Shown here: one piece after another, positions 1,241 to 58,487 of the stretch
Position numbering within the stretch: the stretch's first letter is position 1
How the letters are laid out: every line of letters starts with the position of its first letter
Source of the DNA: Azolla caroliniana
Taxonomy: Eukaryota > Plantae > Polypodiophyta
DNA length: 64,000 nucleotides
Direction: 5' to 3'
Assembly (NCBI GenBank): GCA_043228905.1
Contig: JBHGNT010000002.1
Location: forward strand, 20,274,001 to 20,338,000
Program-made: the position numbers and the translations under genes
Notes under the pieces: generated by a model
Databases searched by the model: none
Told to the model about the DNA's origin: nothing
What the model saw: only the letters and a program-made list of their open reading frames with translations

Positions 1241-2572
1241 ACGCGGAGGACACCGGGTATACGGCGTAGAAAGGGGCGTGGATATGGTCGATCAAGGGCC
1301 ATGAGACGAGCATGCATACGAGAAGAGATCATGGCAAACAACCTGTCGACAGGTCGAACGAGCCTACGGAGAGGATGGAACCGGAGCCGACGGTTCAGAC
1401 CGGCGGGGGCCAACACGGTAGCCGGGATGTGGATTACGGAAGGCCGGTTACTCACTACGGCCGGAATCACTCACCCTTCTCTAGATTTGGCATGTACCGA
1501 TGGACGTGCGGTTTGGTGGGGCCGGATGTATTGAAGATTCACGACCATAGTGAGAAAACATGAGAAGTTAGTGGTATCGACGAAGTGCATCATGTGCACT
1601 TACCCTTGTATAAACGTGTGAATAATAGGGGTGCCTTTATGGTGCCGAATAGGAGTTAGGTTGGGACAGAGAACCCCATGTAATAAGGGATTTATCCCAC
1701 ATTGTTACGCATCCCTCTCCTTGCTCTATAAAAGGAAGAGAGTGTCCCTTGTAAAAGGGGTTGCCCATTTTGAGTTAGGAAGGGTATACCACTTAGGTCT
1801 AGGGTTTGGTAGTTTTCTTGGTCTTCATCTTATTCTTATTCCCTTAGGGTTTGTACTTTGGTCTTTTCACCCTATTTCGTTTAAGGGTTTCATTTTAGTC
1901 TTCTTCATTGTCTCATGGGTTTGGTCCATTCTTTCGAGTGGATGTTAGTATTCCGTTTAGGTTCTTCTTCTTGTGAGAGTTCGTGCGAGTTAGGGTTTAT
2001 GCAGTTTAGGGTTTTGGGTGTTACTCTCCCTTCTTCGTGTGAGAGTTTGGTTTGGTTTGGGGGTTCCTACAATGGCGGCTTTAGGCATTCCAGTGGCAAC
2101 ACTTGGTGATTCGGCTTCCTCTCCTCGATGGAGAGCGTTTCGTGTGGCGGCCGGTTCGAGAAGGGAGGGCGAAGTGGCACAAGAACACTCCACCTTCTTC
2201 GAGGCGTGACCAACGGTGGACGTTGTGGTCCCGGAGGCCCACTTGACTCACCTTCGTCGGTTTCCATTCTTAACTTGTTGTATTAGCCTATTGATATGTA
2301 ATAGCCACCGGATTCGGGGCATGTAACCGTCTTGTTGTAAAGATCTTGTAATATATATTCATGTTAGCGTATATCTATCTTCCTTGTAACATATTTGAGT
2401 CGGGTCCATATTCGTGGTGAACCGTTTTTGTGAAACCCTACATTCGTTGGAGCCGGAAGCCGATTCCGGTCCGAAACCCACGAAGCTCAAGGACTCCACC
2501 ATCCGTCTCCCTAGTCCAAGACCCCTGCTGTCCCGCCTAAGATCCTACACGTACTCGTGGAAAACCGCGACA
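1241..2572 (+). mobile_element. Gypsy element G1b, 3' end (related to non-autonomous G5); 3' LTR 1527-2572
   Basis: Pre-LTR sequence CTCACCCTTCTC...GTTTGGTGGGGCCGGA-TGTATTGAAGATT matches G5 at 19946-20013. The LTR ends ...CCGCGACA at 2572 with the shared U5 motif. Confidence 0.8.
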
Positions 2573-2949
2573 ACGGCAATAGGCGAAGAATGCAGACTGG
2601 GCAGAACAAGATGAGATATGCAAGGTAGCCCATGCATGGGTAGAAAAAGCAAATGCGGCAAACGTGGAGCGTATGAAGCACGAGTCTGCAAATGACAGTT
2701 TGCCAATGAAAGGAAATACATCCTCACCGGATCCCATATGGCAAGCATTGGCGGATTGTGAGATACCAATGACCATGGAAAAGCTTCTTCGACTAGTGCC
2801 ACGATTCCGACAGGTCGTGGAAAACCACATAAGGGGCACCACCGGATTAGATGTCTCAACAAATTTTGCAGAGTCTAGTATTGGCTCAACAGTTGTAGAT
2901 CATCACAATCTAGCCATTAAGTTGGTACTGCAGGGACAGGAAATCTCGG
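2573..2949 (+). pseudogene. G3 gag-pol segment 1 (end of gag to start of protease)
   Basis: ORF 2664..3020 reads PIWQALADCEIPMTMEKLLRLVPRF...LQGQEIS and continues as protease DGGSG at 16014. Confidence 0.7.
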
Positions 2950-3654
2950 TGTCACGTTGTTACGCGTGTGCGTGGAGAACGAAGCGGGACCATCGGGGTC
3001 TTGGATCGAGAAATAGCTGAGAAGGAGGAGAACGGAAAGACCACAGACGCACTTGCACACGCGCAGACACGGGAGCACACAGGAATCACAGTCCAACAAC
3101 ACAACAAAACGAGACGACTAGAAGTCCGAGTATATGAACATGTATGTATATAAATAAATAAATAAATATATATATATATATCAAGGAGGTTACAACTAAC
3201 AGGCCGGCAAGGCGAACATCGACGTCTGTTCACTCACACACAGAAGAGCGAGATGGAGACTCTGCCGGAAGCACACGGGCATTCCACGGAGCAGAGTCAG
3301 CCTCCCGAAAACCTGCGCAAAATGGCTATGGAGAGTGGCAGAGGAGAAGGGCTCGGTCCCAGTCCGGCAGCACTTCGTCCTCTCTGATGCGCGATACATT
3401 TCCCATTCCTCTCCCTCTCTTTTATAGCCCAAGGAGGGAGGCCGTTATCATCCGTTACATCACATTAATTCTTTGTCCTTTCGGACAAAGATACACCTCG
3501 ATTCTCTCCCCATTGATTGCGTGCTACTTAGGATTTCACTTCAGCTGACTTGTACCTACCTACCTACCATACAACAAAAAGTGTGCTCGCGTGTAAGGGC
3601 CAGTTTACACACGCTAAACTCAGTTTTCGCCTAGGGATGGTTTTCTTCACGACA
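2950..3654 (-). repeat. G2 3' LTR (705 bp)
   Basis: Near-identical to 15317-16009; TG...CA ends; internal (TA)n tract. Confidence 0.95.
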
Positions 3655-3709
3655 TCCGCCCCCACCTAACCGCGCATCCACCGGTATGCACCAAAATTGG
3701 GCCCATGCT

Positions 3710-55350: not shown

Positions 55351-56624
55351 CTTGGATGGAGAACCCTTGAACTGTCAAAGGCTCGTTGAGCTTTTTTCAT
55401 TGAGCTTTAGGTCGTCAAGCTTTCGCTCGCCGACCTTTGCATTGTCGACCTTTGCCTTCTCCGCTTTGTTGCCACATTCACATTTAATGAATTTAACACG
55501 TTTGCGTTCAGAAGTGGAAGGATCGGGCATTCCATAATTAGATTCCTTTCATAAATGTGCAATTTTAGGCAATATATAGAAACTTGATACACCAATATCA
55601 CATGTTCTTCAACCCATATAGAACCCGATAAATTATTAAAATTTAACAATTACAATACTCGAAATAGGTATATTTTTGCTAATTTCTAAAGTTGATTATC
55701 TCTAAGACAAACTTTAATTAAATTCTAGAATATGTAAATGGTTGTCTCACTTGACGTATTGATATAGTTTCAAACCTCTAATACTAAATTTAGAAAGTTT
55801 TTTGAAAACTTAGTGTGATCTCAAGCAATGGATCTCCAGGTTTAACCATCAGGACGAGGTGTAGGTTATAGAAGTGGAAGTGACATCCATAGTTTGTGAT
55901 TTATGTTTTTTTCTTTTTTTCAAAATGAAGCTACTTTCCCATTAGTTAGGACGGAATTGTGATTTATGTTTTACACAGTAAGGATGTAATACGTATAACA
56001 AATGAAAAGTCAATGCATCTCAAACTTATGGATGATAAAGACAAAAATTTCATCTAAAATATCATGACACTCTTGGACACTCATGACAATTTCGTAATTA
56101 AAATCATTCAAACAATAAAGCTAAGATAAAAACCTTAAATGTAACATCCCAAAAGTAATGTTATATAAAAAAAGGATAAAGTGTAGCAACAAGTGAAAAC
56201 AATCAAGGTTAAAACATAATCTAACATTCCAAATGTAAGGTGTCTCTTAAATGTAAACATTAATTATATACAACAAAAAGCTTAATATTCGGTTCAAACA
56301 ATTGTTTATTCAATATTCATAAACTTTTGTGAGCTCCAAAGAAAAGAGAGAAACTTAATAACTAGATCAATTGAACATTTGATTAAAATGGTAAATATGT
56401 AAGAACATGAAACTTAAATTACATTGTTCACTTATTAACATCCCAACGTAATGTGGTCCCTTTTCTAAAGGATAATACGTTTGGTATTAATACCACATTT
56501 GCGAAGGAATAAATAATTACAACCTTACAATAATCCAATTGCTTGGATAACAAAACTTTAATTATAATGTTTGGGATAAAAAACAAAATTGTCATATAAA
56601 TTACAATTCATTACATGCCTATAA

Positions 56625-57235
56625 GATTATCTTCATCATTCTCTTTATCTTCCTTTTGAGAGTTGTCATCAAATTTTTGTGCATCGACATCCACTCCAGA
56701 TAGGCTAGCTACTGTGGGGTCCTCGAGAAGCTCATTATCCAGTTCTATAAGCTCCCTAGGTTCACCAGGGAAGGGAGGAATAGGCTCACGAGGGGCAGTT
56801 TGAATCCTCTCTGTATTTGCGATATGCTTTGCCCCTACCTCCTCGTCTTGATTTGGGCACTCCCATCAGGATTGTCCACTTGGTCCATACTATAAAAGAC
56901 CACTATTCTCCACAAACTCGTTGTCATGTGAATCTTCACACACTATGTAAAAAATAATGAAAAATTTATTTTAGATTAGATTAGTAGCTTGTTATAGAAA
57001 TATGGATGTCCTCAAGAGCTTCAAAACATATTTTACTACATACAAAATAGAGAACTACATATCAAGTTAGGTGGAGATGAAGCTTGAGAAGATAGAGAAA
57101 ATACAATTTTGAGGTATCCCACATAGATAGGAAATTTAAGGCCCTGGCTATATAAGCACATTGAGATCCCTCATTTTCATTTGTGCTAAAAACACTTTGG
57201 CCACCTTGTCTTGATGGATGATGGTGGCCAAGTTC
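56625..57235 (-). pseudogene. Decayed gene fragment homologous to the ORF remnant in the TIR element
   Basis: WECPNQDEEVGAKHIANT...RELIELDN with an acidic tail; putative intron acceptor TTTTTTACATAG at ~56943. Confidence 0.45.
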
Positions 57236-58343
57236 CCAAAAACCGGAAACTGGCCAGTAAGCAAAACCGGAACCGGTTGGTAAGCGATCCAGAACCGATT
57301 GGTAAGCGATCCAGAACCGGCCGGTAAGCAAACCGGAATCGAGCGGAAAGCAATCCGGAACCGACCGGTAGCAATCCGGAACTGGCCATTAAGCAATCCG
57401 GAACCGGGCGGAAAGCAAACTAGAACTGGTCAATAAGCAAACTGGAACCGGTTGGGAAGCAAATCGAAATCGGCTGGTAAGCAATCCAGAATTGGTCGGT
57501 AAGCAAATCAGAACCGGTCAGTAAGCAAATCGGAACCGACGAAATCGGCAATTGGATAGTGTTGGAGACCGGGCGGATCCGACAACCGGCGACGATCGAG
57601 ACGAACAGATGATAGGATCATGTGGCTAATTAAAGTGAAGTGGAGAAAACTAAAGTAAAGGTCGTGTGAACGGTCGCATGCAACTAAAAGAAAAAGGCGT
57701 GCAACTAAAAATAGATGTAAATAAAAGGAAATGCCAGGCAACTAAAAGAAAAAGCTATGCAACTAAAATTAGAGGCCATGCAACAAAAAGTGGAGATGCA
57801 TATGATCAACGGGAGAACTCAATATAATTTTCCATTTTTTTTTTTACTCATACTCTCTCTCCATAATTTTTCTTTTCTTTTCCTTCTCAGCTCTCTTATC
57901 TTATCGAAGCCACAACACTCATAAACCATAATTTTCCATACGGAAGCAAGATCACGCATAAACCCTAATTTTCCATACAGAAGCCAAAAACCCTAATTTT
58001 CCCTACAGAAGCCATAACACTCAAAAACCCTAATTTTCCCTATGGAAGCGATATCTCTCAAAATCTAAAATCTCTTATCAAAGCCAAAAACCCTAAATTT
58101 CTATTGAATCCATATTTAGTTTCTTCTAATCTATTATTCTAGTAATCTCCTTAAGATAAAACTTTTGTAATCCCAATCTTGGGATTGATTGTAATTTTTC
58201 TTTTCTATTTATTAATGAAATTTGTCAATGTTGCTCATTTTCCATTAATTGTTTAATATAAACATACGAATTTGATATCTTCCAGTCGGAGGCCCCGGGG
58301 TCTTGCCTCAAAGTTCACGTATCCTCGTCGTATTTTCGCGACA
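57236..58343 (+). repeat. Gypsy G6-family LTR, 5'-truncated (copy 2)
   Basis: Direct repeat of 54311-55290 with a longer AACCGG tract; ends TTTTCGCGACA. Confidence 0.75.
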
Positions 58344-58487
58344 TCGTTGTGGTCAACTCCGTGAAATCCTTCACCATTTGTTTCGTTGTGGTCATACGAA
58401 GATCCAACCATACCAAAACCATATGGAATACAATGAGTAACGTGTACTCCGTCGGCAGCTTCTGGATCATGTCTGCCACATCACCGC

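What the first reader, a model, noticed from the sequence alone, without database searches (positions are those of the whole stretch)
1241..58487. tRNA-Trp-group gypsy elements always insert at N-CG-N: a CpG-centred integration system
Seen: the 4 bases abutting every readable LTR end of this group are ACGC (1241), ACGG (2573), TCGG/TTGG (2946/16010), CCGT/CCGC (16953/20584), CCGT (24555), GCAG (55291), TCGT (58344) and CCGC (58484). At 55291 the interrupted host motif is GCGG in sister LTRs, so CpG decay is inferred there. That is 8 independent insertions from several LTR families; 7 have CG exactly central and the eighth does after inferred deamination. The 4-bp length is confirmed at two complete elements because it restores the host reading frame. 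Copia TSDs here (CAATC, CGATT, CAGAG, CTATG, AACGA, CGAAG) show no fixed-position CG. Even assuming a generous 10% CG per position, 7/7 is about 1e-7. Known: CG-centred target preference exists in some animal gypsy elements (e.g. Drosophila ZAM); I do not recall it being described for this plant group. Inference: G1 and G2 integrases show no chromodomain, so the integrase may read (methyl-)CpG directly and steer insertions into CG-rich, methylated TEs, which would build nests like this one.
Basis: partly seen in the sequence, partly recalled or inferred. Interest (0 to 1): 0.82.

Follow-up and report, generated by a model that had tools for sequence, protein, structure and literature searches.

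The report
Retrotransposon that always inserts at CG
A family of plant jumping genes lands almost only on four-letter DNA sites with CG in the middle, a real and very strict habit that was already described for the moss lineage Phygy, to which these elements likely belong; nothing here shows that they sense DNA methylation.

Summary
All ten 4-mers are at the stated places. In 96 of 96 young full-length copies the downstream 4-bp duplication has CG in the centre, against 4.5% background. None starts with T or ends with A, so the motif is V-CG-B. A whole-genome count finds 6,637 CG-flanked LTR starts (control 40). Copia (0 of 17) and a second gypsy lineage (0 of 15) show no such CG. It is not new: Neumann et al. 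2019 list the Phygy clade as 4-bp NCGN duplications, tRNA-Trp primer and no extra domain, all met here; placement in a tree with Phygy sequences could not be tested. The likely mechanism is readout by the integrase itself, an extreme form of the foamy-virus VYRB preference. The integrase has a conserved odd core (D-R-G-E-L, D(34)E). Methyl-CpG sensing and active steering into transposons are unsupported: young insertions are no more often in repeats (77 of 94) than random VCGB sites (268 of 300). The scan earlier noted NCGN duplications in a fungal genome and Phygy-like nests in this genome.

The parts
470..1240 (+). 3' LTR of a Phygy-type element (family D), PPT before 470; integrase C-terminal remnant at 9-353
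   Evidence: ends, tblastn
1241..1244 (.). host-side flank ACGC, inside the 3' internal region of another element of the group
1527..2572 (+). 3' LTR of a Phygy-type element (PPT just before 1527)
2573..2576 (.). host-side flank ACGG, in the gag of the tRNA-Arg-type host element
2946..2949 (.). target duplication copy TCGG
2950..16009 (-). complete but decayed Phygy-type element: 5' LTR 15317-16009, tRNA-Trp PBS 15295-15312, gag 7177-15274 interrupted by a copia (about 8955-14479), pol 3743-7189 (74-84% to young copies over the main pieces), PPT, 3' LTR 2950-3654
16010..16013 (.). target duplication copy TTGG (CG decayed to TG)
16953..16956 (.). target duplication copy CCGT
16957..20583 (+). 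non-autonomous element of the group: LTRs 16957-17527 and 20001-20583 (94.9% identical), tRNA-Trp PBS 17532-17549, gag remnant 17695-18183, no pol
20584..20587 (.). target duplication copy CCGC
24555..24558 (.). flank CCGT after a truncated LTR end at 24554, inside a copia LTR; 3 of 4 sister copia LTRs have CG at this place, one TG
55291..55294 (.). flank GCAG after LTR end 55290 (family C), inside another LTR of the group
56918..58347 (+). solo LTR 56922-58343 (family C) with identical duplications TCGT at 56918-56921 and 58344-58347
58484..58487 (.). flank CCGC before an LTR end at 58488 on the minus strand (family D)
2499..23053 (+). host element of a different gypsy lineage (pieces 2499-2945, 16014-16952, 20588-23053); not a member of the CG-targeting group

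Best explanation
These tRNA-Trp-primed Ty3/gypsy elements insert with a 4-base stagger at V-CG-B sites, are likely members of the known Phygy lineage, and their integrase likely selects the site by reading the DNA sequence itself. Shown: 4-bp duplication, central CG, no T first and no A last in young copies, weak palindromic flanks (C at -1, A at -2/-3), no chromodomain or methyl-binding domain, and a conserved D-R-G-E-L / D(34)E core. Inferred from the foamy-virus intasome: the 4-bp stagger kinks the target at the central pyrimidine-purine step, and T at the joining position is excluded by a clash of its C5 methyl. Inferred and untested: the narrowing from any YR step to CG comes from lineage-specific contacts, the candidates being the Arg/Glu after the second catalytic Asp and the conserved L-[ED]-[HN]-Q-H loop between the first two C-terminal strands. 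Non-autonomous families (16957-20583) likely borrow this integrase. TG and CA at old junctions are later deamination. Nesting follows passively because CG-rich DNA here is mostly transposon DNA.
For: Target rule: 96 of 96 young downstream duplications and 95 of 96 upstream have central CG; 0 of 188 half-sites start with T, against 30.5% of flank CGs. Genome-wide, 6,637 CGN+LTR-start matches (control 40), 6,108 of them VCGB. Decay: 37 of 39 older end pairs keep CG in at least one copy; TA is 0 of 103. Controls: copia 0 of 17, tRNA-Arg-type gypsy 0 of 15. Phygy features met: Trp PBS, 4-bp NCGN, no extra domain. Relatives in metagenome contigs: Trp PBS in 28 of 32 with enough upstream DNA, CG in 3 of 3 readable host flanks. 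Integrase: D(34)E in 80 of 80 homologues with both residues, Glu in 80 of 82 at the position of PFV Ala188; the model's best match is the PFV intasome, E 1.5e-17. PFV consensus VYRB, central unstacking and the T clash are from PMC4422553.
Against: No Phygy reference sequence could be obtained (the REXdb fasta was too large), so membership rests on features, not a tree. Young elements are 7.0-7.4 kb, below the Phygy range of 7.66-9.97 kb. The V/B rule is not absolute: two paired sites in the window start with T in both copies (TCGG/TTGG, TCGT/TCGT), and 529 of 6,637 genome-wide CG junctions are not VCGB, a number that includes decay. One older pair is ACAC/ACAC and one ACTT/ATGT. In PFV, Ala188 and Arg329 contact bases at or outside the edge of the duplication, not the centre, so how CG is told from TA, TG and CA is unexplained. 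The model is moderate (pLDDT 74.5, pTM 0.48), has no DNA, and its C-terminal loop was matched to the PFV Arg329 loop only by secondary-structure position.
Confidence: 0.78

Rival explanations
1. The integrase needs or prefers methylated CpG at the centre and so targets silenced DNA.
For: The centre is CG only, not any YR step. Old junctions decay to TG/CA, so target CGs are methylated at least after insertion. 77 of 94 young sites lie in repeats, more than random positions (225 of 320; p=0.025).
Against: No enrichment over random VCGB sites (268 of 300). No MBD or chromodomain at Pfam E<=1. The Drosophila ZAM subgroup targets CGCG (PMC5408687) in a fly that, from recall, lacks CpG methylation. 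The repeat test is indirect, its library is limited to the loci fetched, and the random sites cluster in 20 regions.
Confidence: 0.1
2. The integrase avoids 5mC, at least at the joining position, as it avoids T, so it favours unmethylated CG such as LTR leaders.
For: C at position 1 is 54 of 188 half-sites (29%), where about 48% is expected among non-T flank CGs. 3 of 96 young insertions sit in tRNA-Met primer sites of other elements (expected 0.12-0.36).
Against: A plain preference for A explains the shortfall of C. The primer-site excess is post hoc and rests on three events. Most insertions are in repeats, which are probably methylated.
Confidence: 0.08
3. An independent lineage that converged on the same duplication, primer and layout, not Phygy itself.
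For: Element length below the Phygy range. CG-centred 4-bp targets arose elsewhere: Ginger1 CCGG/CCGT/ACGG, ZAM. TatI also has 4-bp duplications and a Trp primer.
Against: Neumann et al. name Phygy as the only plant lineage with a sequence preference. No additional RNase H, which excludes TatI. Close homologues occur in the liverwort Riccia at 55-69%. The gag carries DUF4100, from recall a family described from Physcomitrella.
Confidence: 0.12
4. Artefact: the CG belongs to the LTR end, or reflects high local CG content.
For: CG is common here (4.5% random, 5.8% in flanks), and the LTR ends are CG-rich.
Against: Inner LTR ends abut the PBS or PPT, outer bases vary among 9 different 4-mers and are duplicated exactly in 94 of 96. 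CG frequency is 0.73 at the central offset against 0-0.11 at 19 other offsets. Copia and the other gypsy show none.
Confidence: 0.01

Closest known systems
Phygy clade, non-chromovirus Ty3/gypsy of Physcomitrella patens (Neumann et al. 2019, PMC6317226; passages, section 15 and Additional file 5 read)
   Same: 4-bp NCGN duplication, tRNA-Trp primer, no chromodomain, no additional RNase H, coding region filling nearly the whole internal part.
   Different: Different host (523-Mb non-seed plant, group unresolved), shorter elements (7.0-7.4 kb against 7.66-9.97 kb), overlapping gag and pol frames ('ND' for Phygy), motif refined to V-CG-B in young copies. Tree placement not tested.
Prototype foamy virus integrase (Serrao et al. 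2015, PMC4422553, abstract and passages; Serrao et al. 2014, PMC4005685, passages)
   Same: 4-bp stagger, V-YR-B consensus, T avoided at the joining position; best structural match of the model.
   Different: PFV accepts any YR step and its preference is weak; here the centre is CG only. PFV has D-Q-G-A-A-F, here D-R-G-E-L with one residue fewer before the catalytic Glu.
Ginger1 DNA transposons (Bao et al. 2010, PMC2836005, passages)
   Same: Gypsy-like integrase, 4-bp duplications CCGG (75%) or CCGT/ACGG (24%).
   Different: DNA transposons of animals with inverted repeats; narrower motif. Here ACGT is commonest (24 of 96). Kinship not tested.
Drosophila ZAM subgroup errantiviruses (PMC5408687, passages)
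   Same: CG-rich palindromic 4-bp target (CGCG).
   Different: Insect elements with env and AGT/AnT termini; CG not framed as a single central step.
TatI and Selgy (Neumann et al. 2019, Additional file 5)
   Same: 4-bp duplications; TatI uses tRNA-Trp.
   Different: TatI has an additional RNase H (absent here); Selgy uses tRNA-Ala and is about 5 kb; no NCGN reported for either.

Membership tests
Phygy | 4-bp duplication with NCGN motif | tested here: met
   96 of 96 young downstream copies CG-centred; 94 of 96 identical 4-bp pairs
Phygy | tRNA-Trp primer-binding site | tested here: met
   The PBS motif, read as tRNA-Trp from recall and not matched to this genome's tRNA genes, is found in 99 of 100 young loci, twice in the window and in 28 of 32 metagenome relatives
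Phygy | no chromodomain and no additional RNase H | tested here: met
   Pfam at E<=1 on gag and pol of young copy L169: RT, RH, H2C2, rve, weak SH3, DUF4100 only
Phygy | coding region spans nearly the whole internal part, no extra ORF | tested here: met
   gag about 2510-4690 and pol 4676-8176 within an internal region 2522-8251 in most of 20 young copies; a 325-aa frame overlapping pol on the same strand was not studied
Phygy | length 7,656-9,968 bp | tested here: inconclusive
   median 7,164, range 5,590-7,365: below the P. patens range, but the paper calls size a weak classifier
Phygy | clusters with P. patens Phygy in RT/RH/INT trees (the formal definition) | not testable with these tools
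   REXdb fasta too large; the P. patens RLG2 transcript is cut at 400 letters. The tree shows a 100/100 clade with Riccia homologues, apart from the other lineage
TatI | additional RNase H domain | tested here: not met
Chromoviruses (e.g. Tcn1) | C-terminal chromodomain | tested here: not met
   pol ends about 75 bp before the 3' LTR
Methyl-CpG-targeting retrotransposons (MBD-bearing copia, PMC6673714, search listing only) | methyl-CpG binding domain | tested here: not met
Fungal Ylt1-like gypsy (PMC2864245, passages) | clusters with Ylt1 in RT-INT trees | not tested
   resemblance of the RT is recalled; Atlas gag look-alikes with DUF4100 include Basidiomycota clusters, a lead only

The most novel reading that the evidence does not exclude
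An old CG-targeting integrase clade, marked by D-R-G-E-L / D(34)E and shared by non-seed plants and perhaps fungi, reads the methylation state of its CG target directly in the catalytic complex, with no chromodomain or MBD: an integrase that is its own epigenome sensor.
Probability: 0.13. Interest if true: 0.75.

Novelty: new member of a known kind. Interest (0 to 1): 0.25.

Why it matters
The rule itself is in print for Phygy. What this genome adds is scale and precision: thousands of insertions, many with near-identical LTRs, a refined V-CG-B motif that matches the foamy-virus VYRB code, and candidate residues. That makes it a clean natural case for asking how a retroviral-type integrase becomes sequence-specific. 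It also shows that such a preference can fill transposon-rich DNA without any chromatin reader. It would matter much more if the integrase proved sensitive to methylation.

Tried and rejected
Host group: a one-gene GRAS tree put the host outside the sampled fern clade (Psilotum, Ceratopteris) and the seed-plant clades, unresolved beside Sphagnum. Paralogy may mislead, so only 'non-seed land plant' is claimed; the 'likely fern' of earlier notes was not confirmed. Phygy reference sequences could not be obtained. Treating the window's best-preserved pol (20585-23053) as the group's pol was rejected: it is 23-28% identical to the group's pol, has another PBS, and shows CG in 0 of 15 flanks. LTR pairs of that lineage did not fit in 10-kb stretches (0 of 20), so its duplication length is unknown. 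Its flanks were read 3 bases off and redone. Literature: 'NCGN'+'retrotransposon' gave 3 papers, only Neumann relevant; 'Phygy' 18; 'DUF4100' 0; a methylated-CpG/integrase/moss search gave 13 papers, 12 listed, none on Phygy mechanism by title. I found no paper on VCGB, the DRGEL core or methylation sensing in Phygy; subscription journals are not covered. GingerRoot (6-bp duplication, no motif) and the Yarrowia paper (no Ylt1 target motif in the 12 passages shown) gave nothing. Additional files 1 and 3 of Neumann et al., which I could not see, may already hold the V/B detail.
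Full report
Observation. The ten 4-mers are present as stated and each touches an LTR terminus. They represent 8 insertions from at least four LTR families (here A 16957, B 2950, C 55290/58343, D 1240/58488). With a 4-bp duplication the host frame is continuous at both complete elements. A missed junction at 56918 gives a third paired site, TCGT/TCGT around a solo LTR.

Genome-wide test, older copies. The window lies in a 523-Mb genome. I took the 30 best loci for each of four LTR queries (120 loci). Of 168 junctions read (12 further ends skipped as truncated or lacking TG/CA), 61 were element-internal and 4 were duplicates. The other 103 host-side junctions had CG 75, TG 12, CA 9, TA 0 and other 7; five of those seven look like PBS or PPT remnants. 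Flank background CG was 4.6%. In 39 older end pairs (three probably cross-pairs of neighbouring elements), 26 have CG in both copies and 11 in one; one is ACAC/ACAC and one ACTT/ATGT. TG and CA are therefore mostly later decay.

Genome-wide test, young copies. The group's RT has 18,141 first-look candidates, 141 of them scored. I fetched 100 of the 141, choosing chromosome-sized contigs and mostly long open frames. 97 resolved and 1 tandem copy was dropped. Of 96, the downstream duplication has central CG in 96 and the upstream in 95; 94 pairs are identical; median LTR divergence is 0.0014. The nine 4-mers seen are ACGT 24, GCGT 14, CCGT 14, CCGG 12, ACGG 12, ACGC 10, GCGC 4, CCGC 4, GCGG 2. 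None begins with T or ends with A (0 of 188 half-sites, against 30.5% of flank CGs; p about 2e-30). Whole-genome pattern counts: CGN before the LTR start 6,637 (control 40), VCGB 6,108 (control 26), any three non-A bases 7,392 (control 2,125); 91 of the first 100 listed of the last set have CG, counted by eye. Only 45% of random CGs are VCGB. The V/B rule is not absolute in older families: two paired sites in the window start with T in both copies.

Controls. Copia host junctions have CG at that position in 0 of 17, and the second gypsy lineage in 0 of 15 found among 20 loci.

What the elements are. Two unrelated gypsy lineages are in the window. The host element (2499-23053, in pieces) has a pol 50-75% like P0121, a different PBS (tRNA-Arg by recall) and a long 3' region. 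The CG-targeting group has a pol only 23-26% identical to it and forms a separate 100/100 clade with Riccia homologues. Young members are about 7.2 kb with overlapping gag and pol, a Trp-type PBS and a G-rich PPT. Pfam finds RT, RH, H2C2, rve, a weak SH3 and DUF4100, and no chromodomain, MBD or additional RNase H. Families B and D carry this pol; fetched A and C pairs are short and lack the RT. Among 80 metagenome loci I examined the 42 that were longer or more distant: 28 of the 32 with enough upstream DNA have the same PBS, and 3 of 3 readable host flanks are CG-centred, at 66-79% integrase identity.

Prior knowledge. Neumann et al. 2019 (PMC6317226; passages, section 15, Additional file 5) write that Phygy elements prefer NCGN and list 186 elements, 4 bp (100%) NCGN, tRNA-Trp 81%, no extra domain. 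Jedlicka et al. 2019 (PMC6911290, passages) saw GC-rich centres in 4-bp duplications and Phygy nested in Tcn1. Phygy is reported from a liverwort (PMC12885004, passages). Every diagnostic feature except length agrees; the tree test was impossible.

Mechanism. The integrase aligns with PFV integrase by sequence (E 1e-21) and by model (pLDDT 74.5; Foldseek E 1.5e-17). PFV's consensus is KWK\VYRBMWM, with the central YR step unstacked and T excluded at the joining point by a methyl clash (PMC4422553). V-CG-B is that code with the centre fixed. The lineage has D-R-G-E-L where PFV has D-Q-G-A-A-F, a D(34)E spacing in 80 of 80 sequences, and a conserved L-[ED]-[HN]-Q-H loop between the first two C-terminal strands, the loop that holds Arg329 in PFV (PMC4005685). 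That these residues impose CG is inference; the known PFV contacts do not read the centre.

Methylation and nesting. Random 5-kb stretches range from CpG o/e 0.33 to 1.14. 268 of 300 random VCGB sites lie in repeats, against 225 of 320 random positions and 77 of 94 young insertion sites. Sequence preference alone thus explains insertion into transposons, and no extra steering is seen. The test is indirect: repeat status was judged against the fetched loci only, and the random sites come from 20 regions. Methylation at insertion time is not readable here. A shortfall of C at position 1 and three insertions in tRNA-Met primer sites leave avoidance of 5mC as open as preference.

Verdict. A real, very strict target rule, already described for Phygy. 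These are new members with a sharper motif and testable residues. Interest 0.25.

Noticed in passing
L214, L215, L222 (also L251): 3 of 96 young insertions fall in or right after the tRNA-Met primer site of other elements, two at the same offset; one more at an Arg-type site. With 13,439 exact Met sites in the genome, 0.12-0.36 are expected (post hoc Poisson p 3e-4 to 6e-3).
   Followed up: partly
window 54900-55310 and L061: An identical copy of the LTR end with the same GCAG flank lies on another contig, so this nested structure was duplicated after insertion.
   Followed up: no
window 2499-23053, 37538-40654, 62757-63992; L228-L247: A second abundant gypsy lineage (20,283 first-look candidates) with LTRs starting TGTTGTCCG, an Arg-type PBS and more than 2 kb of conserved, probably coding 3' sequence. 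Earlier notes describe a tRNA-Arg site replacing the PPT in a lineage of this genome; not checked whether it is this one.
   Followed up: partly
L169:1825-5325 and alignment A2: Integrase core has D(34)E instead of the usual D(35)E (usual spacing recalled) in 80 of 80 homologues.
   Followed up: partly
L158-L177, about 5470-6444 on the element strand: A 325-aa open frame overlaps pol in another frame in 14 of 20 young copies; it may only reflect codon bias.
   Followed up: no
L170, L344: Tandem elements sharing an LTR (PPT upstream of the 5' LTR).
   Followed up: no
window 28700-30450: AT-rich array of about 150-bp repeats with internal inversions (GC 27-34%) amid the retrotransposon nest.
   Followed up: no
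L308-L327: The genome has two kinds of DNA: GC-rich stretches with CpG o/e near 1 and AT-richer stretches with o/e 0.33-0.57.
   Followed up: partly
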